A stretch of DNA of 64,000 bases from a virus (Duplodnaviria > Caudoviricetes), in the IMG/VR virus record IMGVR_UViG_3300029705_000009; one strand, written 5' to 3'. The stretch's first letter is position 1. Each line of letters opens with the position of its first letter. The notes under the pieces were generated by a model, which searched no databases, was not told the DNA's origin, and worked only from the letters and a program-made list of their open reading frames with translations. Of the stretch, positions 13,655-35,722 are shown piece by piece. The translations under genes and the position numbers were made by a program.

Positions 13655-14968
13655 TTAGTTTAAAGAATCTTGAATAAGCTCTTGTTCTTCTTCTATATCC
13701 GGTGCGTCAGATGTATCTTTTATAATTCCTTCTAATACTTTAAAAGTAAAAGATTTTCTCTTAAAAGCAGTAAACTTACTTCTATTATCAATTCTGGCAA
13801 CAACACCTTCTGCCACATGTCTTGAATCTATCTCGTCCGGAATGTCAAGCCATTTATTTACTCTTTCGTTGAGATCATCTACTGTTGTAAATAAGAATTT
13901 GTCTAGAACAGGAACGAATTTACATCCCATTCTTTCACACCACATCTTGGTTTCTTCTGTAGGCAATTCAATAACAACACCATCTTCATTGGTCATCGTC
14001 ATTCTATAAACGTACATGTCGCTTTCGCCAGGTTCGCAACCATATGTAAATACAGTTTCCTTGCCATATATTTTTTCAAACTCTTTATCTTTTACTAGCT
14101 TATTGCTACATCTTCCCATAATAGGAGTCGTTTCATTTACCCAGCCTACAATTTCATAAAAAACGGTCATTCCTTTTGGTAGTTTGTCAGCAAAGAAATC
14201 ATGATATTTCTTTCTGAATTCATCATTACCGTAATAACCACCATCAAATTTCTTAAGAACAGTTCTTCTAGTACCGGATACCAGTTTGTATTCTTTTTTC
14301 TTCTTATCCTTTAAATTAAAAATCTTTTTCAATATAGGATTTCTGTGTTTTGTTGTTACCTGGATTGCTGCTTGTGTTCTACCGCTAGTTCCGTGCAGCT
14401 TTCTAGTTAAATAAACAATATCTCCATCTTTAAAGGCATGCAAATTATAATCAAGCTGTGATGTATCAATGTGCTCATCAAAATATGGATAAGACACCTC
14501 TTCTTTTTCAAATTTCTTTTTATGTTTTCCTTGACTGCCATCATGGATTCTCTGAGAATATGTTCTAGCTGGTATATATTTCTTACAAATCTCGTGACCA
14601 CCTAAAACAGTAATCTGATCACCATCTTTTAATTTTGAAATATCTGTATATTTTTCTAATACTCTTACTGGCAAAACCAAACCTTCAGACTTTTCGCCAC
14701 GTAATCTTATTGCAGTGATGTTACGTTTAGACGGATCCATATACCCACCTATGTTATTACCATTCTCATCCTTTTTACGAACAAGATTGTTATCGTTTGC
14801 AAACTCTTCAGATAATTGACCATCTGAAGGAAAGAACACAACCTGTTGACCTTCTTGATAAGATAAATCTACTATTACATTCTGACCAAATACTTCTACA
14901 CACTGCAAACGATCTGCATTACTATGTTTCCTTAGATTGTGTAATGTTGTAATGTAACCACAATACAT
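13655..14968 (-). CDS. ATP-dependent RNA ligase (Rnl2/DRB0094-like) with N-terminal OB-like domain
   Basis: N-terminal HSNADRLQ..RLRGEKSEG; motif I RKLHGTS; YEIVG; EGVV; FKRK. Confidence 0.82.
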   Translation of the reverse strand: MYCGYITTLHNLRKHSNADRLQCVEVFGQNVIVDLSYQEGQQVVFFPSDGQLSEEFANDNNLVRKKDENGNNIGGYMDPSKRNITAIRLRGEKSEGLVLPVRVLEKYTDISKLKDGDQITVLGGHEICKKYIPARTYSQRIHDGSQGKHKKKFEKEEVSYPYFDEHIDTSQLDYNLHAFKDGDIVYLTRKLHGTSGRTQAAIQVTTKHRNPILKKIFNLKDKKKKEYKLVSGTRRTVLKKFDGGYYGNDEFRKKYHDFFADKLPKGMTVFYEIVGWVNETTPIMGRCSNKLVKDKEFEKIYGKETVFTYGCEPGESDMYVYRMTMTNEDGVVIELPTEETKMWCERMGCKFVPVLDKFLFTTVDDLNERVNKWLDIPDEIDSRHVAEGVVARIDNRSKFTAFKRKSFTFKVLEGIIKDTSDAPDIEEEQELIQDSLN

Positions 14969-15657: not shown

Positions 15658-17271
15658 CTACTGTTCAATAATCTTGAAAGATACGTCAGTACGTCTATTC
15701 ATTGCTCTATGTTCTTCTGTGTCATTATCAACCACAGGATTGCTAGATCCTCTACCAACAGTAACGATTCTGTCAGGAGAAATACCATTCATTACAAAGT
15801 ACTGCTTAACAGCCTCTGCTCTCTGTCCGGAAAGCTTAATGTTATATTCGTCTGTAGGATCAGATACTGGATTAGGATCAGTGTTACCAGCAATTTCAAT
15901 AATAGATCCATCCAGAACCTTAGCCACTTCAATAAATTCGTCAAGTTCCTGAGATGCAGAAGCAGAATCAGAGAACTTAGCAGTATTTACTACAAATGTT
16001 ACAGAAGCAGACTTAGTAAGAAGGGATGTAGCATCTAATACTTCCTGTTTGTTATCTTCTGTTACAACAACCTTATTTGTATCAACGGATGTTTCAGTAG
16101 AACTAAAATCACTTGCAATATTATTAATATAAGTATCATCAAAAAGTGTATCTACAACACTAGCATTTACAGTTTCACCAAGAGATGTCCAGATTTCACA
16201 CATATCAGTAAAAATGGTTTTTGCAGTACCATTTAATAAATTGCTGTTATCTTTCCAGGTAGTCAACTTAGCGGAAGCACAGTTTGCAACAATGTCTTCA
16301 TTGGATGCAGTTGAAAACATAGGCATTACACTTCTAATGGCATCAAAGTCGGTGTCATACAGTTCAGAAGCCATTAACGCACCTTTAATAAACTTTTCTA
16401 CTACCTCAGCATTATTCTTTACAAACTCTTCGTTGAATAAGATACCATCCATTACAAGGCTAGAAGAACTTGCAGTACTAAAGAAAATGTGTGCATCGGT
16501 CATGTTCTGAGCCTGGGTTAAATAAGGTTCCCATGTAGCTGCTACATCAACCTCTCCTGCGAAGAAAGCCTTTGCTGCTTCATCAGGAGTCGCAAAGAAG
16601 ATCAGATTGTTCATAATTGCATCTTTCTCTTCCTGAGTTAAATCAGACTGCTGTACAAACCACGCTACAAGAGTGTGTGCTTCGGAGAACTGAGGAACAC
16701 CGATTTTTGCTCCAACTAAATCAGTTACAGTCTGGATGCTGGAGTGTGCAATAATTCCATCGCCACCGTTAGAATAATTAGTGATAAAAGGCATAACAAT
16801 GTCTACACCAGCCTCAGAAAACTTCTGAGATAAGAAAGCAGTTCTGTTAATTGTATAACCGGCAGCATCAAGATCTCCCTTAATAATAGCATTAGAACTC
16901 TGAGTTGCATCGTTGATTACACTAATATTCACATTGATACCAAGTTCGTCATAAATTCCATATTTCTCAGCATCAAGAATTGACTTCCAACCAATCCATT
17001 CATCAAGGGACAAATTAATGGTATTAGCTTCTGTTTTCTCAATGTTCATTACATTACCATTCTCATCATACTCCGGCAAATTGTCTGTATTTTGAGTAGT
17101 GTTATTAATAACCTCTTCTGTCTTGTTATTAACAACACCTGTGTTCTTCTTGTCATCAGAAGTCTTGATAATGCCAGTCTTTACACCGGCAAACACTCCT
17201 CCTCCAACAAGAGCTAAGATTACAACTAAAATTAATACTTTTGCTGCTTTTGTTAATCTAAATCTTCTCAT
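15658..17271 (-). CDS. Membrane-anchored NMT1/SsuA-like substrate-binding protein with C-terminal OmpA-like domain
   Basis: N-terminal TM; W.GW, SNGGDGI, GEVDVAATWEP; C-terminal GNTD..N..LS..RAEAV..G.G.SNP..NRR. Confidence 0.88.
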   Translation of the reverse strand: MRRFRLTKAAKVLILVVILALVGGGVFAGVKTGIIKTSDDKKNTGVVNNKTEEVINNTTQNTDNLPEYDENGNVMNIEKTEANTINLSLDEWIGWKSILDAEKYGIYDELGINVNISVINDATQSSNAIIKGDLDAAGYTINRTAFLSQKFSEAGVDIVMPFITNYSNGGDGIIAHSSIQTVTDLVGAKIGVPQFSEAHTLVAWFVQQSDLTQEEKDAIMNNLIFFATPDEAAKAFFAGEVDVAATWEPYLTQAQNMTDAHIFFSTASSSSLVMDGILFNEEFVKNNAEVVEKFIKGALMASELYDTDFDAIRSVMPMFSTASNEDIVANCASAKLTTWKDNSNLLNGTAKTIFTDMCEIWTSLGETVNASVVDTLFDDTYINNIASDFSSTETSVDTNKVVVTEDNKQEVLDATSLLTKSASVTFVVNTAKFSDSASASQELDEFIEVAKVLDGSIIEIAGNTDPNPVSDPTDEYNIKLSGQRAEAVKQYFVMNGISPDRIVTVGRGSSNPVVDNDTEEHRAMNRRTDVSFKIIEQ

Positions 17272-17312
17272 TAAATTACATTCTCCCTTATTATTTTATT
17301 TACTCTCCGAAA

Positions 17313-18050
17313 CTATTTATTATATTTCTTCTTCAAAGAACTTAAATAGTCATCACTCTGAAGCTTTTTAGCAGCTTCATCTGCTCTCTGCACCTTAGTG
17401 GAGGTTCTATTCTCATGAATTACTCTAGCACCGGCAACAGAAGCATTCAAATTGTCATTCTTCTCTTTAATAGAATCCAGAAGTTTATCTGTAGCAGTAA
17501 CATTCTTGAGGTCATCCATACTGTCATAAACCTCATTAAGCTGTGCTTTTACTTTCATGTTCTCTACAACTTCTTTGGATTCTCTCTTCAGCTTACGAAG
17601 TGCAATGCCACAAGCCTTATGTACTTCTTCTGCATCTGCTCTAGCAACAGTATAAGCTTCAATCAGTTTGTTACTTCTTTCGATGTCAGAAATAATCTCT
17701 GCTCTCTCTTCTGCTTTTACCTGTGCCATTTCCATTTTGCCAGCTTGAACTAATGCTTCACACTTAGCTTCAACATCCTTTAACTGTTTCTGCAAGTTTT
17801 TGTTACGGCTAGTTTCAACTTCAAGTTTACCAGCTGCAATTCTTAATGCATTATCTGCTTTGTTGTACTTATCCTGTGCTTCATTAATCTTCTCTGCATA
17901 GATAGCTTCTGCTCCTTCCGGAGTTGTTGCCATGTCTTTAATAAAAACACGAGTCCAACCAAGACAGAGCTTACGAAACTCAGGGAACAATACTAATAAT
18001 GCAACAAACAGTACAAGAGCGATAATTACTAACAAAGTTCCCAAATCCAT
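17313..18050 (-). CDS. PspA/IM30-like coiled-coil protein with N-terminal TM
   Basis: TPEGAEAIY..I, long coiled coil, C-terminal DDYLSSLK. Confidence 0.65.
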   Translation of the reverse strand: MDLGTLLVIIALVLFVALLVLFPEFRKLCLGWTRVFIKDMATTPEGAEAIYAEKINEAQDKYNKADNALRIAAGKLEVETSRNKNLQKQLKDVEAKCEALVQAGKMEMAQVKAEERAEIISDIERSNKLIEAYTVARADAEEVHKACGIALRKLKRESKEVVENMKVKAQLNEVYDSMDDLKNVTATDKLLDSIKEKNDNLNASVAGARVIHENRTSTKVQRADEAAKKLQSDDYLSSLKKKYNK

Positions 18051-18580
18051 TACTTCTCACCTCCAACAAAAGCAACAAGATCCGCAATTCTCTTCAGTTC
18101 AACCTCAACCTTGTCTTCTGTACTATCAATAATGGCTTCTCTATTTGCATTATCTTTTTCAAGTTCCTGGATTTCTCTCTTCTTCTGTTCAATAATGGCA
18201 TTATTATCAGCAATAGCATTCTTATTGTCTGCAACAATTGCATTCAGAGCAGAACGAACAACGGTTTCTCTGGAATATCCATCACTTAAAACCTCATCTA
18301 CTGTGAGTCCAAAACTAGACAGAATAGATAAAACGGTAGCCTTTTTGGTGTCTTTGGGCATCTCCTTGGGGAGAGAATTAACAAGCTCTTCTACCTTAAA
18401 GATTGATTTTGACAAATCAGATAATTCATTCTGACCATAAATATCTTCGATCAGATTATCCTGAGATACATCCTCCGTATTAACTTCTACTTCTGCGATT
18501 TCTTCTTCTGCATAAAGTTCTTCGTCAAAGAACTCTTCTTCCTTAATCTCTTCTACTAAAAATTTCTTTAAAAATCCCAT
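18050..18580 (-). CDS. Hypothetical acidic coiled-coil protein
   Basis: ORF coupled in operon, GGAGG RBS. Confidence 0.75.
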   Translation of the reverse strand: MGFLKKFLVEEIKEEEFFDEELYAEEEIAEVEVNTEDVSQDNLIEDIYGQNELSDLSKSIFKVEELVNSLPKEMPKDTKKATVLSILSSFGLTVDEVLSDGYSRETVVRSALNAIVADNKNAIADNNAIIEQKKREIQELEKDNANREAIIDSTEDKVEVELKRIADLVAFVGGEK

Positions 18581-18591
18581 TTGTTCCTCCT

Positions 18592-19209
18592 TTAAAAGTT
18601 TAAAATTTCGTCACACATTTTATTTGCTTCATCTTTGCTATGTGTGACCATAATAATTGTATTATGGGTTTGTTTGTGTATATCAAGGATTAATTGCTGC
18701 ATATCTGTTCTAGTCTTTTCATCTAAAGCAGAAAGAGGTTCATCCATTAATATTATTGATGGTTTCATATATAAAGTACGTGCCAAGGCCAATCTTTGCC
18801 TCATGCCACCGGAAAGTTGCTTTGGATATTTGTCTGCATAATCTTGTAATCCTACTCTTTCCAACCACTTCATGGCATTCTCACGAACTTCATTGGTGAT
18901 TCTTTTGTGATTTATCCTTTCAACAATTAATATATTGTCCAAACAAGTCAACCAGTCAAAAGAAGTGTAATTCTGATGCATCATATAGACATCATTCTTA
19001 CTTGCTCTTTGAAGGGTTTTATCGTCAATAAATATCTCTCCATTAAGTGGATAAATCAAACCGGCAATAGTTTTCAGTAAAGTGGATTTTCCACAACCGG
19101 ATTCTCCTAAAATTCCGTAAATCTTGTTGTCTTCGAATATGTAAGAGAGATTAGATTTTAAAGGCTTATCTCTACTATAACCTGTTGTGATGTCATTCAA
19201 TCGAATCAT
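18592..19209 (-). CDS. ABC transporter ATP-binding protein (SsuB/TauB-like)
   Basis: GESGCGKS, LSGGMRQR, LMDEP, VTH. Confidence 0.95.
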   Translation of the reverse strand: MIRLNDITTGYSRDKPLKSNLSYIFEDNKIYGILGESGCGKSTLLKTIAGLIYPLNGEIFIDDKTLQRASKNDVYMMHQNYTSFDWLTCLDNILIVERINHKRITNEVRENAMKWLERVGLQDYADKYPKQLSGGMRQRLALARTLYMKPSIILMDEPLSALDEKTRTDMQQLILDIHKQTHNTIIMVTHSKDEANKMCDEILNF

Positions 19210-19948
19210 TTATATACCTCCATTTAAAACACTTCCTAATCAACAATTTAGCAATGTTATCAAACAAAAAACTGATGATCATAATTGAAATAATTCCAAG
19301 AAATACCAAATCAGTCTTTCCTCTAGAAGATGATTGCTGAATCATGTAACCAAGTCCGTATTTTGCGTTAATACTTTCAACCACGGCACAATAGGTGAAG
19401 CCTATTCCGAAGCACATTACAAAGCTATTTAAAATACTTGGTAACATAGCCGGTAATTGTATTCTTACGATTGCTTGCAATCTACTCATTCCAATTGTAT
19501 ATCCGGTTTCGATTAGATCCTGGTTAATTTCCTCTAATGAATTTACTACTGAAGGCATCATATACACAAAACATGCAATGAAAAGAAACGCAATTTTCAT
19601 TTTCTCTTCAATACCTAACCACAAAATTAATAATGGATAAAATGCAGTTACTGGAACATATCGCATAAGACTGACAATAGGATTAACCGAATACTTTATA
19701 ATCTTAAAATTGTATACCAATAACCCTAACGGCAAAGCAACAAGACCAGATAATACTGAAGAAATCAATATTCTTCTAAATGTATATAGAATTGCGATTT
19801 GCAATTGTCCTGTAGATATAAGTGTTTTAGCATCTTCCAATACCACTAATGGATTTGGAATAAATAGCGAATTTGAATTTAAAGAAGCAAAATACCATAT
19901 TAATATAACAATTAAAAATGTTATTAAAGTAATCAGTTTATTTTTCAT
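19193..19948 (-). CDS. ABC transporter permease (SsuC/TauC-like)
   Basis: Multiple TM segments, EAA-like loop, VVES..A..GLGY. Confidence 0.92.
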   Translation of the reverse strand: MKNKLITLITFLIVILIWYFASLNSNSLFIPNPLVVLEDAKTLISTGQLQIAILYTFRRILISSVLSGLVALPLGLLVYNFKIIKYSVNPIVSLMRYVPVTAFYPLLILWLGIEEKMKIAFLFIACFVYMMPSVVNSLEEINQDLIETGYTIGMSRLQAIVRIQLPAMLPSILNSFVMCFGIGFTYCAVVESINAKYGLGYMIQQSSSRGKTDLVFLGIISIMIISFLFDNIAKLLIRKCFKWRYINDSIE

Positions 19949-20653: not shown

Positions 20654-20726
20654 TTCTGATGGTAGGACTCGAACCTACGACGCGAGGAATTTACCGGCTC
20701 TGCTCTCCCAGCTGAGCTACATCAGA
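20654..20726 (-). tRNA. tRNA-like gene with aberrant anticodon arm (identity unresolved)
   Basis: Acceptor TCTGATG/CATCAGA, D-arm GCTC/GAGC, T-arm GTAGG-TTCGAGT-CCTAC; only 3 bp (GAG/CTC) close CCGGTAAATTC. Confidence 0.7.
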
Positions 20727-20737
20727 ACTTTTAAATT

Positions 20738-21229
20738 ACATTTGACTACTCATGCAGTACTTCATGCCCGCACCCACCTATGTCTCCCACACACAACCTC
20801 GTCAAATGTTGTTTTTAAATGGTTTAATCGACCTCACCACAAACGGAGTTGTCCATCAACTCACATGGAACAGTTTTACCAGTTTTCTTTTTGGACGACT
20901 ATTACGTATGTCCTCCAACTGCCAAGTCGATTTTTTACATGCATGACCTACTAATCTGCAGCTAAGTAGGATTATGTTCAACACTTTATCGAAAGCCTGA
21001 ATCATTTTACTGAAAACGCTATTTTGACTCTGTTGCAAAATAGTAACGGTCAAGTGATAAGTCACTACCTCTGTTCTTTTCTCCACCAATTTACAGTAAG
21101 GAGTGTGTTTCCTTTTGAAACTTCTCAAAAGTCACTTCAGTGTCCGTTGCCGACCCTATTTTCTTTTTGAATTAAGGATAAGTCACTTCAGTAGAAAACC
21201 TTAGCTATCAGTTTTCTTATGCTGTTGCC
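20738..21229 (-). ncRNA. Candidate structured ncRNA(s) between tRNA-like genes
   Basis: Successive closed stems (ACATTTGAC/GTCAAATGT, AATCGAC/GTCGATT, CCTACT/AGTAGG, CTATTTTG/CAAAATAG), repeated CTGAAGTGACTT; no convincing ORF. Confidence 0.45.
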
Positions 21230-21232
21230 CAA

Positions 21233-21306
21233 GTTCGCAACCAGGGGATGAACCTAGATTTCTTTCTTTGATCAGGAGAAAGCGTTTTGTCTTAAACTAC
21301 TGCGAA
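21233..21306 (-). tRNA. tRNA-like gene with 6-bp stem and 9-nt anticodon loop (CCTGATCAA)
   Basis: Acceptor TTCGCAG/TTGCGAA, D-arm GTTT/AAAC, T-arm CTAGG-TTCATCC-CCTGG. Confidence 0.6.
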
Positions 21307-21348
21307 ACCGTTTTAACCCTATTAACCACTCCTCAAGGAAAGGAGAAA

Positions 21349-21428
21349 CGGCAGTCTCCGGAATCGAACCAGTAATTGTATCTGCTTTTTATTGTCCAGA
21401 TATTGCTTTGCCATTAAGCTAAACTGCC
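21349..21428 (-). tRNA. tRNA-like gene with 12-nt anticodon loop
   Basis: Acceptor GGCAGTT/GACTGCC, D-arm GCTT/AAGC, TATCTG-GACAATAAAAAG-CAGATA, T-loop TTCGATT. Confidence 0.6.
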
Positions 21429-21462
21429 TCGTATGCGTTATTTCCGGTATACGCATCCCACC

Positions 21463-21684
21463 CTTGTTACAAATATTTCATTTCGTATACGTGATTGGTT
21501 ATGTCTATGAGTCCATACAACCATATCTGCACTTATCTTTTTTACGATTCCCTTCAGTGTGCAGAGACAGGAATACGATCGAGCCACGTTTTTCGGTTGT
21601 ACAAATACTACTTTGAAACATTTGTAGATTATTCTTTGCTCTACTGGTAATCAACCAGGTTTGGTTCCACCCAAACGTAACAAG
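21463..21684 (-). ncRNA. Candidate multi-hairpin ncRNA (~220 nt)
   Basis: Closed by 8-bp CTTGTTAC/GTAACAAG, with several internal hairpins. Confidence 0.45.
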
Positions 21685-21698
21685 TGAGCTTTTAGTGA

Positions 21699-21771
21699 TG
21701 GAGCGCCTGGGATTCGAACCCAGAACCGTCCGGTTATGAGCCGGATGCACTAACCGTTGTGCTAACGCTCC
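21699..21771 (-). tRNA. tRNA-CAT (Ile2 or Met; arm resembles Firmicute Ile2)
   Basis: Canonical cloverleaf, TCCGG-CTCATAA-CCGGA. Confidence 0.93.
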
Positions 21772-21828: not shown

Positions 21829-21917
21829 TGGTGGAATTTTGAAATGCTGTCGAATCGAACGACAAGAAAAACTTTTGCAGAGTTTTGAATTTAAAATTGC
21901 TGTAAGAGATCTCCACC
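21829..21917 (-). ncRNA. Array unit: tRNA-Cys(GCA)-like RNA with D-arm replaced by CAGCAA motif
   Basis: GGTGGAG/TTCCACC, TTACAGCAATTTT, AAAACT-CTGCAAA-AGTTTT, TGTCG-TTCGATT-CGACA. Confidence 0.7.
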
Positions 21918-21962
21918 CTTATCTCCTATAATTCTGTCACCAGACGCCTTTCGTATTTATTC

Positions 21963-22022
21963 TAGGCACGTTTACATTATTGATTAACAGTCAATTGTAT
22001 TTATATTTGCTGCATGTGCCTA
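21963..22022 (-). ncRNA. Array unit: mini RNA with Asn(GTT) anticodon stem-loop
   Basis: TAGGCAC/GTGCCTA stem, ATGCAGCAAAT, ATTGA-CTGTTAA-TCAAT. Confidence 0.75.
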
Positions 22023-22028
22023 TATTGC

Positions 22029-22205
22029 TAGATACCATATATCAGAGTTTACTTAAATTTGCACCAAGCTACAGATTCGAACTGCCATCTTCTCCTTTAA
22101 AGGGAGACGTAATATTCTTGCGAATGCGCTTTGCCCTATTATACTATCTCGGTGGTTTCCTCATCATACTTTTTTACGCATTATTTATATCGCTGTTGGT
22201 ATCTA
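22029..22205 (-). ncRNA. Array unit enclosing a tRNA-like element with TTA (ochre) anticodon (22061-22154)
   Basis: TAGATACCA/TGGTATCTA stem, ACAGCGAT; inner CACCGAG/CTTGGTG, TCTCC-CTTTAAA-GGAGA, T-loop TTCGAAT, expanded D region. Confidence 0.65.
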
Positions 22206-22220
22206 TTTAATTTTATTTAG

Positions 22221-23771
22221 TTATACAATGTCTTTAACGGCATCCTCTACTACTTGGTATCTTTCGGAGTTAAGCTGTTCAACCAAACATTCAAACGGAT
22301 CGAGCTTTCCACTAAGTACCATCTTGCAGATAGCAGGGCTAAAACCAGACACTAACGCTACTGGGAAGTTTTCGTGCCGATTTACAGGCAAGGTACCGGT
22401 TCTACTACAAATGTTCCAGAATACAACACGAGGCATTTTGTAACCAGCATTAGTCCATTTCTGTTCAATTTCTCTGAATAAAGTATTTTTTACTCCCCAT
22501 CCACCACTATTATCTATTGCACATGAATCGAATTCCATATCTGATAAAATAAGAACATTTGTAGGAATATCTTCTTGGCTCATTTTCTTGCTAACGGCAG
22601 TCTTGAGTAATAAATCAAACACAGCTTCAATATTGGTATTGGCCACCTCATTATATCTAAGTGCAATCGCAATCTTTTCTCTTAAAGTCTTAGCTTGAGA
22701 AAAGTCTACTAATTGAGGTCTATGGCTAAAAGTAATGTAATTGTTCTTAAACTCTCCATTACTATGCTCTGCAAAATAAATTGCTAAAGCATTTGCAACA
22801 TCAAGACATGTCACATTGGTTCCACCAACTGTACTTTTCATACTTCCGGAGCCATCAGCAACACAAATCGTGTTTCCCTGACCCTTTACAAAGTCAGGAA
22901 GTGCTTTCCATAACTGCTCCAATGTAGTATCTACACCAGATTTTAAATATTGACCATAACCAGAACCAGTCATATAACTATGAACAATATCATGAGGGAA
23001 GTTAACAGAACTGTTAATCTTTACACCTTCATCTCCACGCTCTAAAGCTGCCAGATAAGCTCTACGTCTCTCTTCATCATTTCTTAAGAAAGCTCCATTG
23101 TAAATCAGATTCGCTCTTGAAGGTACTGTGTTATAGTCGATTTCACTCCACTCTTTCGCAGACATTTTAACTTCTACAACATTAAGATACTTACGAAGAG
23201 AAGAAAGTGTCTTTCGATAATTTCTCTCTGTCATATTAAGACCGGAATAAAGAATCCTTGCAAGTCTTCTGTTTCCCTTTGAGGAGCAATTAGTACTAGG
23301 CATCCATTTTGCCAAGAGTGAAATAGGCTTGTTTTCCATCTGATTAGCGCAGTCTTCCTCAAGCTGCATTGCAACCCAGGCTATAACATCTTCACGAAGT
23401 TTTGTATCAAGCAGACACCACATATCATCTACACGGCCATATTCCGGTGCTAAGCTAAACACTGCCTTTGCAATCTCAGGTTGTTCTGTTGCCAACCATT
23501 TCAGACACACTCTAAACAATCTTCTTTCGCCAATGCCTTCTCTTGCATCTCTGCAATAGAATAACCACTTTACGGCAAGCAGCTTGTCTTCATAGAAAGC
23601 CTTAGCAAAAGCATCTTCAATTGCTTTATCACTCTTATTTCTGAAAGATGTTACACCGAAATTAATATCTAACAGCTTTCTTCCGGATGTGCCAAATCCT
23701 AACGCTCCATTTTCTGTAATGGAAAAGCTATTCTGATCTAGTGTTGTTTTTAAATTATTCATAAAACTCAT
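22221..23771 (-). CDS. DUF2828-family TROVE/Ro60-like protein with C-terminal VWA (MIDAS) domain
   Basis: TENGA, RDAREGIGER, LAKWMPS, DGSGSM, ILSDMEFD, VFWNI, LVSGFS; start at MSFMNN after AAGGAGA. Confidence 0.88.
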   Translation of the reverse strand: MSFMNNLKTTLDQNSFSITENGALGFGTSGRKLLDINFGVTSFRNKSDKAIEDAFAKAFYEDKLLAVKWLFYCRDAREGIGERRLFRVCLKWLATEQPEIAKAVFSLAPEYGRVDDMWCLLDTKLREDVIAWVAMQLEEDCANQMENKPISLLAKWMPSTNCSSKGNRRLARILYSGLNMTERNYRKTLSSLRKYLNVVEVKMSAKEWSEIDYNTVPSRANLIYNGAFLRNDEERRRAYLAALERGDEGVKINSSVNFPHDIVHSYMTGSGYGQYLKSGVDTTLEQLWKALPDFVKGQGNTICVADGSGSMKSTVGGTNVTCLDVANALAIYFAEHSNGEFKNNYITFSHRPQLVDFSQAKTLREKIAIALRYNEVANTNIEAVFDLLLKTAVSKKMSQEDIPTNVLILSDMEFDSCAIDNSGGWGVKNTLFREIEQKWTNAGYKMPRVVFWNICSRTGTLPVNRHENFPVALVSGFSPAICKMVLSGKLDPFECLVEQLNSERYQVVEDAVKDIV

Positions 23772-23816
23772 TTCTTTTTCTCCTTTTTGAATAGTTTTAT
23801 TTGCTTTAACTATTCC

Positions 23817-23868
23817 AAGATACATTTGATAGATTTGCAGTCTAATTTTTATTTGCTGTTAGTATCTT
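23817..23868 (-). ncRNA. Array unit: mini RNA with Cys(GCA) anticodon stem-loop
   Basis: AAGATAC/GTATCTT stem, TAACAGCAAAT, TAGA-CTGCAAA-TCTA. Confidence 0.75.
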
Positions 23869-23880
23869 AGAAATTAATAA

Positions 23881-23998
23881 GCGGAGAGTGTGGGACTCGA
23901 ACCCACGACAACAGGCTCCCTAAGCAATATAAAATTGCAGTATAAGTCTTTCTCAAGACTCGTTTTTTTCTGTGCTCTACCAACTGAGCTAACCTCCG
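23881..23998 (-). tRNA. tRNA-Pro(AGG)-like with 44-nt insertion (23926-23969) in anticodon stem
   Basis: D-arm GCTC/GAGC, CAG[insert]GC-TTAGGGA-GCCTG, T-arm GTGGG-TTCGAGT-CCCAC; insert is hairpin + ATACTGCAATTTT. Confidence 0.8.
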
Positions 23999-24003
23999 CA
24001 TAT

Positions 24004-24121
24004 CAGAGAGGGTAAGATTCGAACTTACGACCTACGGGTTAACAGCCATTGTAAAATTGCAGTTTAAGTCTTTGACAAGACCCGATTATTACGTTGCTCT
24101 ATCCAGCTGAGCTACCTCTCT
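24004..24121 (-). tRNA. tRNA-Asn(GTT) with 44-nt insertion (24048-24091) in anticodon stem
   Basis: AGAGAGG/CCTCTCT G73, ACG[insert]GG-CTGTTAA-CCCGT, canonical D and T arms. Confidence 0.85.
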
Positions 24122-24124
24122 GAG

Positions 24125-24251
24125 TGGGGAAAGAATGGATTCGAACCATCGAAGCATAATGCGAGAGATTTACAGTCTTCACAAATTGCAGTTAATGTCT
24201 AACTAGACATGTTCTCCGTTCTCTTGGGTTTGTCCACTTCCCTATTTCCCC
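24125..24251 (-). tRNA. tRNA-Tyr(GTA) with 44-nt insertion (24178-24221) in anticodon stem
   Basis: GGGGAAA/TTTCCCC A73, AGA[insert]GA-CTGTAAA-TCTCT, long variable arm GCA-TTA-TGC. Confidence 0.85.
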
Positions 24252-24264
24252 ATATTTAGTTTTC

Positions 24265-24327
24265 TAGTCGCCATAAAAACTTATCAGATCCCTAATCAGA
24301 TGTTTTTAATGTTGCTGTAAGCGACTA
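24265..24327 (-). ncRNA. Array unit: mini RNA with Pro(AGG) anticodon loop
   Basis: TAGTCGC/GCGACTA stem, TTACAGCAAC, ATCTGA-TTAGGGA-TCTGAT. Confidence 0.72.
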
Positions 24328-24330
24328 ACT

Positions 24331-24387
24331 AGATGCTTTTGAATTACAATTTAAAAGATTGTTCCAATAAAATTGCTGTATGCATCT
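24331..24387 (-). ncRNA. Array unit: mini RNA with Lys(TTT) anticodon stem-loop
   Basis: AGATGC/GCATCT stem, ATACAGCAATTTT, ACAAT-CTTTTAA-ATTGT. Confidence 0.75.
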
Positions 24388-24389
24388 GA

Positions 24390-24502
24390 AGACGTGAGAC
24401 GGAGTTGAACCATCATCTGTGCCTTGGCTTCCTTTAATTTGCTGTTTGAGTTAAACTAAACTCTTTATTCGGAGCACCGTGCTACCATTGCACCATCACG
24501 CC
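24390..24502 (-). tRNA. tRNA-Gly(GCC)-like with ~42-nt insertion (24431-24472) in anticodon arm
   Basis: GGCGTGA/TCACGTC U73, D-arm GTGC/GCAC, GTGCT[insert]AAGCCAA-GGCAC; insert is hairpin + AAACAGCAAAT. Confidence 0.72.
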
Positions 24503-24507
24503 ATATC

Positions 24508-24582
24508 AAAGCGGTTTGAGGTATTGTCGTTTTCCTCTCATTAATGTTTTCTGGAGACAAAATATCTTGCTGTAACCGCTTT
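24508..24582 (-). ncRNA. Array unit (stem + ACAGCAA; possible Trp-like CTCCAGA loop, weak)
   Basis: AAAGCGGTT/AACCGCTTT stem, ACAGCAAG. Confidence 0.6.
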
Positions 24583-24589
24583 TAATTAC

Positions 24590-24655
24590 TAGACAGATTA
24601 AAATATATAATATGTATTCTGGCATATATTCTTTAAATGTTGCTACTTCTGTCTA
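24590..24655 (-). ncRNA. Array unit (divergent motif TAGCAA, internal hairpin)
   Basis: TAGACAGA/TCTGTCTA stem, AGTAGCAAC, ATATG-CCAGAATA-CATAT. Confidence 0.55.
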
Positions 24656-24657
24656 AA

Positions 24658-24729
24658 CAGGGCTAGCTGGATTCGAACCAGCGACTGCAGCAGTCAAAGT
24701 GCTGTGCCTTACCGCTTGGCGATAGCCCT
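24658..24729 (-). tRNA. tRNA-Gln(TTG)
   Basis: Canonical cloverleaf, CAGCA-CTTTGAC-TGCTG. Confidence 0.95.
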
Positions 24730-24927
24730 ATAAATTCTGGTGGTTCTTTTACATCTACCACCAAAGATGTATCATAAGAAAGGAGGTACGTTTGCAAGAA
24801 GCAAACCAAACTTTAGGAATATGTCGTAATAATAGGCTTTTATTGCACACTTTCGTTTTTGTGTGTAATTTTATTTACCTACGATTGTTTTTTTGAGGAC
24901 TTAATGTCCTCAATCTCAACTGTACTT

Positions 24928-24956
24928 AGTCTACCATACTATGCAATAATTGTCAA
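24928..24956 (-). promoter_or_regulatory. Sigma-A-type promoter facing the RNA array
   Basis: TTGACA-17 nt-TAGACT with TG extension. Confidence 0.7.
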
Positions 24957-25020
24957 TACACTTTTTGATATTTAATTTTATTTACCTATTACCAAAAAAA
25001 AATAATTTCCTGATGAAACT

Positions 25021-25049
25021 ATACTACCACGGCTAACACATATTGTCAA
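25021..25049 (-). promoter_or_regulatory. Second tandem sigma-A-type promoter
   Basis: TTGACA-17 nt-TAGTAT with TG extension. Confidence 0.7.
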
Positions 25050-33456: not shown

Positions 33457-34365
33457 TTAATCCAGATAGTCCTTGTGATCTATTATATAGCGTGTTTTAG
33501 AAATTTGACAATTATATTTCTCTTCAACTTCTTTAAAATATGGAGAATGTATATATTCTGAATCTTTCATTCCTAATTCTTTTGCTCTTTTCTTGATCAT
33601 ATGTAACATACCTGAATCAGATATGCTATTGAGCGTGATGTAAGAAGGAAGACCAAGAAAATTAATAATTCTACCGAAAGCTTGATATATATTTCTTCCC
33701 ATTTGATAATCAGACACGTCTGTTTTTACGGTATAATGATGCTTCAACACATATCCTCTATCAACCAAAGGAATACTTCTAATCGGGCCATAATATCTAT
33801 CTTCTTCGATACAGTCATCAATAATATGACGCAATATATTCGATATTTCTATTTCCCTTCCGGTACAAAGACTTAATGTATTTCCATTAACATCAGACGG
33901 CTTCAGCTTTGCTAATTCACAATAATCCTTACCGCCTATACCCTCAAATGTTCCCAACAATACATACTTGTCTTTAGGATTCGCAAGCTGCATCACCCAG
34001 TCCAAAACCATACTTTCAGTTACTATTTTTTGATTGAATACTCCTTTGTTTATAAATCCATTAAAATCTTCGTATTTAATTTCAATATAATGATTTTGAT
34101 TGTCTGCTACTAAATGCTGACTTAAACACCATTGCGTATACATTGATAAATGGCTATTAATAACATCTAATGATTTTATCGTTGGAATATTCAACATTTT
34201 GTAAAATTCTATAATCTCATATACTGTAAAGTCGTGAACATCTTTGTTATATTCAAATTCCATTTCGGAGGTTTTTTCAAACAATCTTTCCAGATATCCG
34301 TTTGGCAGAGTGGTTTCTTGATTTTTTTCATAGATATATCTTGATTTTAACTCTTCATTATACAT
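33457..34365 (-). CDS. SPbeta YopR/MrpR(SroF)-like repressor (degenerate tyrosine-recombinase fold)
   Basis: MYNEELK.RY N-terminus, E....KD..DF, FEGI.G...EL..L; position after YopQ-like gene. Confidence 0.7.
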   Translation of the reverse strand: MYNEELKSRYIYEKNQETTLPNGYLERLFEKTSEMEFEYNKDVHDFTVYEIIEFYKMLNIPTIKSLDVINSHLSMYTQWCLSQHLVADNQNHYIEIKYEDFNGFINKGVFNQKIVTESMVLDWVMQLANPKDKYVLLGTFEGIGGKDYCELAKLKPSDVNGNTLSLCTGREIEISNILRHIIDDCIEEDRYYGPIRSIPLVDRGYVLKHHYTVKTDVSDYQMGRNIYQAFGRIINFLGLPSYITLNSISDSGMLHMIKKRAKELGMKDSEYIHSPYFKEVEEKYNCQISKTRYIIDHKDYLD

Positions 34366-35626
34366 ATGCTTCTACCTCCTGTATTATTTTTTCAATACCA
34401 TCCACAACAACCTTTTTAGGTGTTCTTGAACGGAATTTCTTGTTATCCAACTGTTCAACTTTCTCTATTACGGCATCAATAACTTGACACATGTGTCTTT
34501 TATCTTTATCTTTGTAATAATTAAATACACACATGATTGCAGTTAACTTCTTATATGAATATGACTGTGTAATATATTTTGTATCATATTCTGTCAGCAT
34601 ATTAAAATTATCAGTTAATTCTTTTATGGCAGATATTAATACAACCTTTTCTTTTTCTTTTGAGGTATATCCTTTAAAATAGAAATAATCAATCAATCCA
34701 GACAACTCTGCAAAATTAATTATTCCCTGGTTCATACTAATTAAACCTTGTAAATTAAACTGAGAACTTCCATTTAATCTCTTTACGACGGAATTTGATG
34801 CTTTATATGAATCCATCGCATCACTATCAGTCTTAGGCATTCTCGTCTTTTGAGCTTCCTGATAAACGAATTGTCTTGCCTTATCTTCCATGAAATTAAC
34901 AATTCTCAGTTCCATAGTGTAATTAAAATCCGGATTGTTGATATTTATCCTACATGCTGCTACGTATCTGTGATATCCATCTAAAATATCAAATCCTCCT
35001 AAGGATTTAATTACTAACTCTTTTGTTTCGTCATCATAATAAAAGTCTGAGTCTATTTCTTGTGGAATGTTTAATGTAAATGGAGTAGGAATATAAATTC
35101 CATCATTGTACATTTTTGTAATTGATTTGATCGCCGTTTCGTTTATGGTAATTTTATATATCTCTTTACCACCCCTTACAACTTTTTGCATAGTTCTCTG
35201 TGCATTTTCGTTGTAAGTTATTAACTGCGCATCTCTCAATTTCATTAACATTCTAAAATCTATCTTACCAGTCCATTGATCATCTGTTACTTGAATCATT
35301 TCGAATCTTAAAGGAAATTTTATTTTATCCACATTATACTTTGAATTTTTATATCCTCTAATTTCCTGATCAGTAAAATAATCCTCAAATCTTATCCTGG
35401 TATTTGGAATGTTATTTTTAATTGAATCTAATAAACAAAATAAAATAAATTCTGACGCTTCTTGGACGGGTTTTCTTAATGCTAGATAATCAGATGTAAT
35501 GCCTTTGGGGATCTCATATGTTTCTTTTGCATATATACAAATTTGCTTGCACAACTCTGTATTAGCAGTAATTTTAAGAATCTTTTCTTCTAGATATTTC
35601 TCCAAATTTTCATTTGCTGTTAACAT
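34358..35626 (-). CDS. SPbeta YopQ(SroE)-like DGQHR/DndB(ParB-like) protein
   Basis: YNENAQR, LDGYHR, A.QF..QE. Confidence 0.72.
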   Translation of the reverse strand: MLTANENLEKYLEEKILKITANTELCKQICIYAKETYEIPKGITSDYLALRKPVQEASEFILFCLLDSIKNNIPNTRIRFEDYFTDQEIRGYKNSKYNVDKIKFPLRFEMIQVTDDQWTGKIDFRMLMKLRDAQLITYNENAQRTMQKVVRGGKEIYKITINETAIKSITKMYNDGIYIPTPFTLNIPQEIDSDFYYDDETKELVIKSLGGFDILDGYHRYVAACRININNPDFNYTMELRIVNFMEDKARQFVYQEAQKTRMPKTDSDAMDSYKASNSVVKRLNGSSQFNLQGLISMNQGIINFAELSGLIDYFYFKGYTSKEKEKVVLISAIKELTDNFNMLTEYDTKYITQSYSYKKLTAIMCVFNYYKDKDKRHMCQVIDAVIEKVEQLDNKKFRSRTPKKVVVDGIEKIIQEVEAYV

Positions 35627-35722
35627 CTTATGTCCCTTCCTTTCTGAAATGATTATAGTCTTTTTTTATTATTTTGTCTAGTCTTTTTTGTCAAAATGGT
35701 GCTAAAATATTATTTCATTTAC

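What the first reader, a model, noticed from the sequence alone, without database searches (positions are those of the whole stretch)
21829..24655. Ro60/TROVE-like (DUF2828) gene embedded in an array of 12 RNAs that share one motif and mostly display tRNA anticodon loops: candidate anticodon-decoy or tRNA-repair RNP system
Seen in sequence (minus strand): 12 units flank the DUF2828 gene, 3 downstream and 9 upstream. In each, a 5-9 bp helix strand, usually starting WAG, is followed by WWA-CWGCAA-WW. The core hexamer lies at + coordinates 21897, 22007, 22190 (CAGCGA), 23853, 23935, 24057, 24186, 24312, 24373, 24439, 24567 and 24640 (TAGCAA). Helix sequences differ but pairing is kept (TAGGCAC/GTGCCTA, AAGATAC/GTATCTT, TAGTCGC/GCGACTA, AGATGC/GCATCT, TAGACAGA/TCTGTCTA), which indicates covariation. 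In nine units a 7-nt anticodon loop follows 8-16 nt after the motif: Cys GCA x2, Asn GTT x2, Pro AGG x2, Lys TTT, Tyr GTA, Gly GCC. A tenth unit encloses a TTA-anticodon tRNA-like RNA. Two tandem sigma-A promoters (24928-25049) face the array. Established knowledge: TROVE/VWA Ro60 proteins bind Y RNAs through a conserved helix; bacterial Y RNAs (YrlA) are tRNA mimics; rsr-yrl-rtcB loci respond to tRNA cleavage; several antiphage or toxin effectors are anticodon nucleases (PrrC and PARIS AriB on Lys, colicin E5 on Tyr/Asn/His/Asp). Inference: the motif is the binding site of this Ro60-like protein, and the phage makes a panel of RNPs that present different anticodon loops as decoys or inhibitors of host anticodon nucleases, or as substrates for repair. 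I do not know of a description of this architecture.
Basis: partly seen in the sequence, partly recalled or inferred. Interest (0 to 1): 0.95.

Follow-up and report, generated by a model that had tools for sequence, protein, structure and literature searches.

The report
Phage Ro60-like protein with handle-tagged tRNA-mimic RNAs
A large gut phage encodes a ring protein that folds like the RNA-surveillance protein Ro60, surrounded by twelve small RNA genes that share one short "handle" joined to tRNA anticodon arms or whole tRNAs; the same protein-handle pairing recurs in very different phages and looks like an undescribed relative of the Ro60/Y-RNA particle.

Summary
All 12 core hexamers lie at the stated coordinates on the minus strand, each after a helix strand that has a partner. 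The motif and the helices exceed chance.

One correction: four units are real tRNA genes (Gly, Tyr, Asn and a Pro-like one) with a 42-44 nt handle insert in the anticodon arm. A fifth unit nests a tRNA-like RNA inside the handle helix.

The protein (22221-23771, DUF2828+DUF7788) is predicted to have the full Ro60 fold (Z 19.9 to 1yvr) and an invariant MIDAS site.

The handle is a 7-9 bp helix, AAGRC.../...GYCTT-G, followed by WWACAGCAA.
- It is about 100-fold enriched just upstream of homologous genes in 170 loci.
- A covariance model finds it beside DUF2828 genes in Listeria, Staphylococcus, Bacillus, Enterococcus, Campylobacter, Ralstonia, E. coli (Felixounavirus), Fusobacterium and Mycobacterium phages. 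Nearly all hits are on the gene's strand.
- No Rfam family matches it, and I found no paper describing it.

Best reading: a Y-RNA-like particle whose RNAs display tRNA anticodon arms. Protein-RNA binding and the decoy or repair role are inferred, not shown.

This scan has noted the same system on other DNA (at least 147 genomes). I rate it a new variant of a known kind, of high interest.

The parts
25021..25049 (-). promoter-like site 1 (TTGACA-17-TAGTAT with TG) facing the array
   Evidence: a consensus match only
24928..24956 (-). promoter-like site 2 (TTGACA-17-TAGACT with TG)
   Evidence: a consensus match only
24657..24730 (-). ordinary tRNA-Gln(UUG), the first gene of the array
   Evidence: 65.8 bits
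24589..24656 (-). unit 1: free-standing handle RNA. Helix TTAGACAGA/TCTGTCTAG, variant core AGTAGCAA, no clean anticodon arm.
   Evidence: (R1 34.3 bits; this unit was in R1's training set). The L091 orthologue has the canonical AACAGCAA.
24508..24582 (-). unit 2: free-standing handle RNA. Helix AAAGCGGTT/AACCGCTTT, TACAGCAA, cargo without an anticodon arm.
   Evidence: R1 E=0.0025 although the unit was not in the training set.
24390..24502 (-). unit 3: tRNA-Gly(GCC)-like gene with a 42-nt handle insert (hairpin GAGTT/AACTC + AAACAGCAA). Its loop AAGCCAA lacks U33.
   Evidence: (44.5 bits)
24331..24388 (-). unit 4: free-standing handle RNA with a Lys-type arm ACAAT-CUUUUAA-AUUGU
   Evidence: 48.8 bits. 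The stem changes compensatorily in L091.
24264..24328 (-). unit 5: free-standing handle RNA. Helix TTAGTCGC/GCGACTAG, loop UUAGGGA on an imperfect stem.
   Evidence: (54.8 bits)
24127..24252 (-). unit 6: tRNA-Tyr(GUA) gene, class II, with a 44-nt handle insert (hairpin ATGTCT/AGACAT + TAACTGCAA)
24004..24121 (-). unit 7: tRNA-Asn(GUU) gene with a 44-nt handle insert between positions 29 and 30 (hairpin GTCTT/AAGAC + AAACTGCAA)
   Evidence: (46.8 bits)
23882..23997 (-). unit 8: tRNA gene with loop UUAGGGA (Pro-like, AGG) and a 44-nt handle insert (hairpin AGTCTT/AAGACT + ATACTGCAA)
   Evidence: 35.4 bits. ARAGORN reads it differently.
23813..23872 (-). unit 9: free-standing handle RNA in the gene's leader, with arm UAGA-CUGCAAA-UCUA (Cys-type)
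   Evidence: 50.4 bits
22221..23771 (-). gene for the Ro60-like protein (516 aa; DUF2828 + DUF7788/vWA; MIDAS D306-S308-S310...T379...D411)
   Evidence: pLDDT 92.8; Z 19.9 to Ro60 1yvr
22029..22205 (-). unit 10: handle helix TAGATACCA/TGGTATCTA with variant core AACAGCGA. It encloses a tRNA-like RNA (22062-22153) with anticodon UUA and an enlarged D loop.
   Evidence: (35.6 bits)
21963..22022 (-). unit 11: free-standing handle RNA with an Asn-type arm AUUGA-CUGUUAA-UCAAU
   Evidence: 59.6 bits
21829..21917 (-). unit 12: hybrid with an acceptor-like stem GGUGGAG/UUCCACC, TTACAGCAA in place of the D arm, a Cys-type arm and a T arm
   Evidence: (partial R1 hit, E=0.014)

Best explanation
**What it is.** The locus encodes a Ro60/Y-RNA-like ribonucleoprotein system of a large phage of gut Clostridia.

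**Protein.** The DUF2828/DUF7788 protein is a TROVE-type helical ring with a vWA/MIDAS domain.

**RNAs.** Twelve small RNA genes lie on the same strand, probably transcribed with the tRNAs from the promoter-like sites at 24.93-25.05 kb. They share a 'handle': a 7-9 bp helix (base AAGRC/GYCTT-G) followed directly by single-stranded WWACAGCAA.

**Role of the handle (inferred).** By analogy with the conserved stem of Y RNAs, the handle is the docking site of the ring protein.

**Cargo.** Attached to the handle is a tRNA anticodon arm, a whole tRNA body, or a tRNA-like fold. All layouts give the same junction:
- Free-standing units have their ends at the handle helix.
- In insert-bearing tRNAs the handle helix is closed by a loop and the ends are at the acceptor stem.
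- In relatives, permuted tRNA-like units have the acceptor closed by a loop.

**What the particle does (inferred).** It would hold tRNA look-alikes by the anticodon-arm side and present their anticodon loops or tRNA bodies. The most likely use is in the phage-host contest over tRNA, in one of two ways:
- as decoys or competitive inhibitors of enzymes that read anticodon loops, such as anticodon nucleases;
- as adaptors that bring tRNA-processing, repair or decay enzymes to the ring, as YrlA does for Rsr and PNPase.

**Shown versus inferred.** Shown: the fold prediction, the RNA family, its covariation, and its linkage to the gene. Inferred: binding, expression and processing, and the biological role.

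**My odds.** Cognate RNP, about 0.75. tRNA-centred conflict role, about 0.5. Decoy specifically, about 0.25.
For: **Protein.**
- AF2 model: pLDDT 92.8.
- Foldseek's top hits are all Ro60/TROVE over the full length, E 1e-6 to 1e-7.
- VIA Z 19.9, 418 residues aligned at 3.9 A to 1yvr, against Z about 10 for matches to the vWA domain alone.
- The MIDAS residues are invariant across 104 homologues.

**RNA family.**
- Motif density is 3.29 per kb in the 500 nt upstream of homologous genes, against about 0.03 per kb for background and antisense, over 170 loci.
- A helix of at least 7 bp abuts the motif in 315 of 516 sites, against 52 of 516 after shuffling.
- All 13 tested pairs covary. The anticodon-arm helix was not used to select the units; it is 70.9% paired, against 35-47% in slid controls.
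- 41 of 122 distinct units carry a 5-bp stem with a Y-U-NNN-R loop, against 6.4 expected. Lys UUU, Pro UGG and Ser UGA dominate.

**Linkage to the gene.**
- In the window, model R1 hits only this cluster.
- R1 finds units beside DUF2828 genes in Mycobacterium, Listeria, E. coli, Staphylococcus, Campylobacter, Bacillus, Ralstonia, Enterococcus and Fusobacterium phages: 42 of 42 and 12 of 14 hits are on the gene strand.
- In ten whole phage records, 19 of 22 hits lie within 3 kb of the gene.
- In an independent set of 80 genome or MAG loci there are 72 hits, 70 on the gene strand.

**Y-RNA analogy.** Relatives have handle units that enclose a T arm, a closed acceptor and a D arm: L010 3505-3675, Whirlwind L172 about 4030-4160, momo L173 4855-4985. 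The Whirlwind unit matches the tRNA-like part of Rfam YrlA.

**Selection.** Between the window and L091 (80% protein identity) the arrays are syntenic. Handles are conserved while cargo and anticodons change.

**Context.** DUF2828 genes sit beside tRNA arrays in many phages. This window also holds an RNA ligase gene at 13655-14968.
Against:
- The handle bears no resemblance to the known Ro60-binding sequences. It lacks GNCGAAN0-1G (Chen 2014, PMC4201824), and in the window Rfam YrlA scores 24.9 bits against a threshold of 69.
- The anticodon arms are weak in energy terms, and only about a third of free-standing units in relatives have one.
- Bas63 gp130, a probable homologue, countered the ppl defence without its phage RNAs. 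The protein may therefore act alone, and ppl is not a known anticodon nuclease.
- Some DUF2828 phages show no handle near the gene, for example Vibrio PVA8.
- The related loci are not independent samples.
Confidence: 0.72

Rival explanations
1. The handle is a protein-assisted tRNA intron or maturation signal. Insert-bearing tRNAs would be precursors, and the 42-44 nt module would be cut out and the halves re-joined (for example by the phage RNA ligase) to give working tRNAs. Free-standing units would be decayed or regulatory derivatives.
For: - Removing exactly 44 nt from the Asn, Tyr and Pro-like genes restores a perfect 5-bp anticodon stem and 7-nt loop.
- 160 distinct module-bearing tRNA genes occur in relatives, some with an encoded CCA end.
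- An RNA ligase is encoded in the window, and an RtcB 'tRNA-splicing ligase' lies near the gene in Listeria phage LMTA-57.
Against: - The same handle closes many RNAs that hold no tRNA, and it closes permuted tRNA-like units that could never become tRNAs.
- The insert site varies, with ARAGORN-assigned positions 30-41.
- Removing the Gly insert leaves a loop without U33.
- The split stem stays paired in the unspliced form, so a restorable stem does not require splicing.
- No splicing endonuclease, group I intron or bulge-helix-bulge signature was seen.
Confidence: 0.1
2. The units are cis-acting processing or regulatory elements of the tRNA/DUF2828 transcript, such as RNase entry sites, attenuators, or an autoregulatory leader bound by the protein. 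They would not be stable partner RNAs.
For: - One unit always sits about 60-100 nt upstream of the start codon, in the leader (unit 9 here).
- Units are interleaved with tRNAs, which are cut out of polycistronic transcripts.
Against: - There are up to 12 copies per locus, and they also lie downstream of the gene.
- The closed helix-plus-cargo architecture matches Y RNAs.
- The cargo carries tRNA-like modules with covariation.
- Some units have their own promoter-like sites, in Fnu1 and L007.
Confidence: 0.08
3. The repeats are a small mobile or repetitive DNA element (MITE-like) that targets tRNA genes and has no RNA-level function.
For: There are many copies in one region, some inserted into tRNA genes.
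Against: - Strand bias is strict: 42 of 42 and 70 of 72 hits lie on the gene strand.
- The helix sequences differ between copies but keep pairing.
- The family is conserved next to one protein family across phyla.
- There are no terminal inverted repeats or target duplications.
Confidence: 0.02

Closest known systems
Ro60/Rsr with YrlA-type Y RNAs of bacteria and phages (Rfam RF02553; Chen et al. 2014, PMC4201824; Thermus phage phiLo Ro60 with Yrl1/Yrl2, PMC12135203)
   Same: - A ring protein with the TROVE + vWA/MIDAS fold.
- Small RNAs encoded next to the gene on the same strand.
- The RNAs are closed by a stem made of their 5' and 3' ends.
- The cargo mimics tRNA; relatives even have the YrlA layout of T arm, closed acceptor and D arm.
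   Different: - The protein belongs to Pfam DUF2828/DUF7788, not TROVE; it is 11-15% identical to Ro60 in structural alignments.
- The handle is AAGRC helix + ACAGCAA rather than the GNCGAA bulged stem.
- There are many paralogous RNAs per locus: 12 here, against one or two.
- Cargo includes bare anticodon arms and complete tRNAs with the handle grafted into the anticodon arm. YrlA lacks an anticodon arm.
Bas63 gp130 (Felixounavirus), a Ro60-like counter of the 'ppl' defence (bioRxiv 10.1101/2024.10.10.617714)
   Same: - A Ro60-like phage protein directly beside a tRNA array.
- In Felixounavirus momo, the DUF2828 gene is followed by tRNAs interleaved with four handle units.
- The authors guessed that some of the 'tRNAs' might be Y RNAs.
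   Different: - Homology of gp130 to this protein is inferred from fold, position and genus. I did not check it against the Bas63 sequence.
- No RNA partner was identified in that work.
- gp130 alone sufficed against ppl.
Phage tRNAs and tRNA mimics that counter anticodon nucleases (for example the T5 tRNA-Lys against PARIS, or T4 repair after PrrC); named from my own knowledge, not checked here
   Same: The phage encodes anticodon-loop-bearing RNAs within tRNA arrays. Lys UUU is the commonest displayed loop.
   Different: Here many RNAs are not chargeable tRNAs, all carry a protein handle, and no nuclease target is known.
tRNA introns (group I in bacteria; bulge-helix-bulge in archaea)
   Same: Insertions in the anticodon arm whose exact removal restores a canonical arm.
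   Different: - Only 42-44 nt long.
- No group I or bulge-helix-bulge features.
- The same module occurs outside tRNAs.

Membership tests
Ro60 / TROVE proteins | Helical-repeat ring followed by a vWA domain (Ro60 fold) | tested here: met
   AF2 model pLDDT 92.8. Foldseek's top 12 hits are Ro60/TROVE. VIA Z 19.9, 418 residues aligned at 3.9 A to 1yvr, over residues 13-491.
Ro60 / TROVE proteins | Sequence match to the Pfam TROVE or Ro60 models | tested here: not met
   Pfam gives DUF7788 (1e-43) and DUF2828 (3e-32). vWA_Ro60 scores only 18.5 bits against a cut-off of 27.7. A profile of the family finds no PDB sequence at E<=1.
Ro60 / TROVE proteins | MIDAS motif (DxSxS...T...D) in the vWA domain | tested here: met
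   D306, S308, S310, T379 and D411 are invariant in 104 homologues.
Ro60 / TROVE proteins | Binds Y RNA on the outer surface and misfolded RNA in the cavity | not testable with these tools
   Needs EMSA, CLIP or a structure.
Y RNA / YrlA (Rfam RF02553) | Encoded beside the Ro60-type gene on the same strand | tested here: met
Y RNA / YrlA (Rfam RF02553) | Stem formed by the RNA's 5' and 3' ends that carries the protein-binding site | tested here: inconclusive
   A covarying closing stem is present in 7 of 12 units. The RNA ends and the binding are unknown.
Y RNA / YrlA (Rfam RF02553) | Conserved Ro-binding sequence (GNCGAAN0-1G bulged stem), or a score above the Rfam threshold | tested here: not met
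   The best YrlA score in the window is 24.9 bits against a gathering score of 69. The handle motif is ACAGCAA. Only the tRNA-like core of a Whirlwind unit aligns, to model positions 24-84 at 38.3 bits.
Y RNA / YrlA (Rfam RF02553) | tRNA-like domain (T arm, closed acceptor, D arm) | tested here: inconclusive
   Present in relatives. In this window the tRNA bodies are unpermuted (units 3, 6, 7, 8, 10) or absent.
tRNA (Rfam RF00005) | Cloverleaf that scores above the gathering threshold | tested here: met
   24004-24121 scores 46.8 bits, 24390-24502 scores 44.5, 22062-22153 scores 35.6 and 23882-23997 scores 35.4, against a threshold of 29. ARAGORN with introns allowed finds the Tyr gene at 24127-24252.
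tRNA (Rfam RF00005) | Continuous 5-bp anticodon stem with a 7-nt loop in the gene | tested here: not met
   A 42-44 nt insert interrupts the arm.
Group I tRNA introns | Group I catalytic core | tested here: not met
   The inserts are 42-44 nt, and no group I intron hit appears in Rfam at E<=1.
Archaeal-type tRNA introns | Bulge-helix-bulge at the splice sites, plus a splicing endonuclease | tested here: inconclusive
   No such motif appears in the folds, and no EndA-like hit was found among the window ORFs scanned. Many small ORFs were not scanned.

The most novel reading that the evidence does not exclude
The phage loads a Ro60-like ring with an evolving panel of handle-tagged anticodon arms and tRNAs. 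These would act as decoys or traps for host enzymes that recognise anticodon loops, such as anticodon nucleases of the PrrC/RloC/AriB type, Cas13-like collateral RNases, and toxins. The anticodon displayed by each unit would change under arms-race pressure while the handle stays fixed. This would be a new principle of anti-defence and a new function for the Ro60 fold.
Probability: 0.25. Interest if true: 0.92.

Novelty: new variant of a known kind. Interest (0 to 1): 0.8.

Why it matters
- Ro60/Y-RNA particles are known from animals and about 5% of bacteria, and their function is still debated.
- DUF2828 proteins are far more common in phages: 705 phage records hold a homologue. These include workhorse phages such as the Felix O1 group, Listeria P100-like phages, Staphylococcus, Campylobacter and Bacillus phages, and mycobacteriophages annotated 'Ro-like RNA binding protein' such as Whirlwind. 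No RNA partner has been assigned to any of them.
- A defined handle gives a search key for the RNAs and a mutational target for binding studies.
- It also explains many 'gaps', pseudo-tRNAs and missed tRNAs in phage tRNA arrays.
- If the cargo anticodon arms are decoys or adaptors, this is a new layer of the phage-host conflict over tRNA. It would also be a natural scaffold for displaying RNA hairpins on a protein ring.

Tried and rejected
I collected relatives with the search for related loci instead.
- No whole genome is held for the window.
Expression, RNA ends and splicing therefore could not be examined, and read laying was not used.
- Rfam at E<=1 gave only tRNA hits plus sub-threshold YrlA and plastid models.
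- A profile search of PDB sequences found nothing; only fold comparison revealed Ro60.
- The motif matches at 597, 5702, 8267, 9972, 16239, 35612, 36681 and 36801 are isolated. R1 gives nothing significant at any of them (best E 0.087 at 590-667). I inspected the last three, and they lie in coding sequence.
- Thermodynamic folding does not by itself support the anticodon arms.
- A guessed accession for Bas63 turned out to be another BASEL phage. The identity of gp130 with the DUF2828 family therefore remains inferred.
- I considered a test of whether exact excision restores a stem. I dropped it because both the intron reading and the stable-chimera reading predict a restorable stem.
- Pfam scans of further window ORFs found no RtcB, polynucleotide kinase, PNPase or splicing endonuclease.
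- No paper in the searched library mentions DUF2828 in phages or this RNA motif.

Full report
**Setting.** The window has 34% G+C, and nearly all its genes lie on the minus strand. They include a DnaE-type polymerase, a primase-helicase, an NAD-dependent DNA ligase, methyltransferases, recombinases and an RNA ligase. The polymerase is closest (46% identity) to those of the 130-kb Clostridioides phages LIBA6276 and LIBA2945. The DUF2828 protein occurs on a contig of 275 kb. Its closest relatives in genome collections sit mostly in Lachnospiraceae, Oscillospiraceae and other Clostridia assemblies from guts. So this is a large phage, or phage-plasmid, of gut Clostridia.

**Observation.** Reading the minus strand and scanning by script put all twelve core hexamers at the stated coordinates. 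Each follows a helix strand that has a partner. The strict pattern WWACWGCAAWW occurs 15 times in the window against 3.5 expected; no shuffle of 100 reaches 15. Seven of these lie in the 2.8-kb cluster, all on the minus strand. The copies at 35.6-36.8 kb are inside coding sequence.

- Rfam's tRNA model scores 24004-24121 (46.8 bits), 24390-24502 (44.5), 23882-23997 (35.4) and 22062-22153 (35.6) above its threshold of 29. It places 42-44 extra nt in the anticodon arm of the first three and about 20 in the D loop of the fourth.
- ARAGORN finds none of these by default.
- With introns allowed it reports Asn(GUU), Tyr(GUA) and Gly(GCC) genes with inserts of 44, 44 and 42 nt.
- In these genes the helix is a local hairpin just upstream of the motif. 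Removing exactly 44 nt from Asn, Tyr and the Pro-like gene restores a canonical arm.

**Four layouts of one module.**
1. Free-standing units of 58-75 nt, closed by the helix: units 1, 2, 4, 5, 9 and 11.
2. tRNA genes with the module grafted into the 5' side of the anticodon arm: units 3, 6, 7 and 8.
3. A tRNA-like RNA nested inside the helix: unit 10.
4. A hybrid: unit 12.

These layouts are topologically equivalent. In every case a helix is followed by ACAGCAA, a linker of about 10 nt and the anticodon arm. What differs is whether the RNA's ends lie at the handle helix or at the acceptor stem.

**Protein.**
- The gene most likely spans 22221-23771 (516 aa), the form present in databases.
- Pfam gives DUF7788 (1e-43) and DUF2828 (3e-32), with only sub-threshold vWA_Ro60.
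- The family is large: 6642 cluster representatives at E<=0.001 and 705 phage records.
- An AlphaFold model built from 104 homologues has pLDDT 92.8.
- Foldseek's best matches are all Ro60/TROVE structures over the full length.
- VIA-align gives Z 19.9 (418 residues, 3.9 A) to Xenopus Ro60. Matches to the vWA domain alone reach about Z 10.
- The MIDAS residues are invariant.
- Sequence searches alone do not reach Ro60.

**The RNA family in relatives.** I collected 170 loci encoding homologues of 35-80% identity.
- On the gene's strand, the motif density is 3.29 per kb in the 500 nt upstream of the gene and falls off over 2 kb. Background and antisense are about 0.03 per kb.
- A helix of at least 7 bp abuts the motif at 315 of 516 sites, against 52 of 516 after shuffling the flanks.
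- 122 distinct free-standing units give the consensus (W)AAGRC-NNN-WWA-CAGCAA-cargo-NNN-GYCTT-G.
- 119 of 137 loci with enough upstream sequence have at least one helix-backed unit. The maximum by the strict motif is 8, so this window's 12 is at the top of the range.
- In a MAFFT alignment of 61 units, all seven pairs of the outer helix covary, but the helix was a selection criterion.
- The inner 5-bp helix was not a criterion. It is 70.9% paired, against 35-47% in slid controls, and every pair shows changes on both sides.
- 41 of 122 units have a 5-bp stem (33 of the 41 exactly 5 bp) with a 7-nt Y-U-NNN-R loop starting 9-12 nt after the motif. Shuffling gives 6.4. The anticodons are UUU (15), UGG (8) and UGA (8), and positions 37 and 38 fit the matching tRNAs.
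- ARAGORN finds 160 distinct module-bearing tRNA genes in these loci, all on the gene strand.

**Linkage across distant phages.** I built covariance model R1 from the 61 units.
- In the window it finds only this cluster, including unit 2, which was not in the training set.
- It finds units directly beside DUF2828 genes in the phages below.
- Hits are almost always on the gene's strand: 42 of 42 and 12 of 14.
- In ten complete phage records (about 1.45 Mb), 19 of 22 hits at E<=0.05 lie within 3 kb of the gene. Vibrio phage PVA8 has none.
- In an independent set of 80 bacterial-genome or MAG loci there are 72 hits at E<=0.01, 70 on the gene's strand, mostly within 2 kb upstream.

| Phage | Handle units found |
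|---|---|
| Mycobacterium phage Whirlwind (gene annotated 'Ro-like RNA binding protein') | three, downstream of the gene |
| Listeria phage LMTA-57 | three, upstream |
| Felixounavirus momo | four, among the tRNAs |
| Staphylococcus phage S-CoN_Ph16 | three, downstream |
| Campylobacter phage F371 | two, upstream |
| Bacillus phage Tsamsa | present |
| Ralstonia phage RSP15 | present |
| Enterococcus phage phiSHEF13 | present |
| Fusobacterium phage Fnu1 | present |

**Relation to Y RNAs.** Several relatives have handle units that enclose a T arm, an acceptor stem closed by a loop, and a D arm. This is the architecture of bacterial YrlA. The Whirlwind unit matches Rfam YrlA only over that tRNA-like core (model positions 24-84, 38.3 bits, below the threshold of 69). 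It does not match over the Ro-binding stem. In the window, YrlA reaches only 24.9 bits, on a stretch that spans two adjacent tRNA genes. The handle is therefore a different docking element from the GNCGAAN0-1G stem of YrlA (PMC4201824) and the CGAA bulge of the phiLo Yrl RNAs (PMC12135203).

**Evolution.** The window's upstream array is syntenic with L091, whose protein is 80% identical. Handles are nearly identical while cargo diverges.
- Unit 4 keeps CUUUUAA, with compensatory changes in the stem.
- Unit 5 changes from UUAGGGA to CUUAAAA.
- Unit 9 changes from CUGCAAA to CUAAAAA.
- The probable orthologue of unit 11 changes from CUGUUAA to CUUUUAA.

This pattern of a conserved handle and fast-changing anticodons fits a fixed protein contact combined with a cargo under diversifying pressure.

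**Mechanism.** The best-supported reading is a Ro60/Y-RNA-like particle in which the handle docks on the DUF2828 ring and the cargo presents tRNA anticodon arms or tRNA bodies.

Shown here:
- the predicted Ro60 fold;
- the existence of the RNA family, its covariation and its strand bias;
- its linkage to the gene across phyla.

Inferred:
- protein-RNA binding;
- co-transcription from the two promoter-like sites;
- processing of the transcript;
- the biological role.

The genomic company points to tRNA-centred conflict: tRNA arrays, the RNA ligase here, and RtcB in the Listeria phage.

The one genetic datum is from PhageMaP. Bas63 gp130, a Ro60-like protein directly upstream of the tRNAs of a Felixounavirus, counters the ppl defence, and does so even alone in T7 or from a plasmid. 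Its authors guessed that some tRNAs might be Y RNAs. The handle units between the tRNAs of the related phage momo are concrete candidates. That gp130 belongs to the DUF2828 family is my inference, not a check.

**Rivals.**
- An intron or maturation role for the inserts remains possible (about 0.1). It cannot explain the free-standing and permuted units.
- A purely cis-regulatory role (about 0.08) fits the leader unit. It does not fit the copy number or the downstream copies.
- A mobile DNA repeat is excluded by the strand bias and covariation.

**Novelty.** I found no Rfam family and no paper that describes the handle or assigns RNAs to DUF2828 proteins. The scan's own index shows that the same system was noted on other DNA in at least 147 genomes, with similar follow-up verdicts. 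I consulted that index only after reaching my reading. I file this as a new variant of a known kind (the Ro60/Y-RNA RNP), of high interest.

Noticed in passing
window 20654-21771 (minus strand): The array continues beyond the finding. It holds tRNA-Met (21699-21771), a 'tRNA-Ser(GGA)' with an over-long anticodon region (21349-21428), a tRNA-like sequence at about 21233-21306, and a 'tRNA-Tyr' (20654-20726) whose anticodon arm aligns poorly. Between them is a 13-nt direct repeat, ACTGAAGTGACTT. None of these carries the ACAGCAA handle.
   Followed up: partly
window 13655-14968 (minus strand): RNA ligase gene: PHROG 968, Pfam RNA_ligase plus a PHA02142 OB-fold N-terminal domain. It lies 7 kb from the array and is a possible tRNA-repair partner.
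   Followed up: partly
window 15658-19948 (minus strand): The phage carries ABC-transporter-like genes (an ATPase at 18592-19209 and a permease at 19193-19948) and a 537-aa protein (15658-17271) that joins an NMT1/substrate-binding domain to an OmpA domain. This is unusual cargo for a phage.
   Followed up: no
window 33457-36733 (minus strand): Two tyrosine-recombinase or integrase-like genes (33457-34365 and 35723-36733) flank a 422-aa protein of unknown function. This fits a temperate or phage-plasmid lifestyle.
   Followed up: no
L172 4030-4160 (Mycobacterium phage Whirlwind): This handle unit encloses a permuted tRNA-like domain. It also contains GTCGAAG, which matches the YrlA Ro-binding consensus GNCGAAN0-1G, just before its 3' helix strand. 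It is possibly a link between the two handle types.
   Followed up: partly
L173 4205-4985 (Escherichia phage momo, Felixounavirus): Four unannotated handle units (AGAAGACC.../...GGTCTGG) lie between the annotated tRNA genes. One of them overlaps no annotated feature and encloses a permuted tRNA-like fold.
   Followed up: partly
L260 2619-2848: In one 'Prevotella' MAG contig, two strong handle hits lie on the strand opposite to a truncated DUF2828 match. This may be a rearrangement or a mis-assembly.
   Followed up: no
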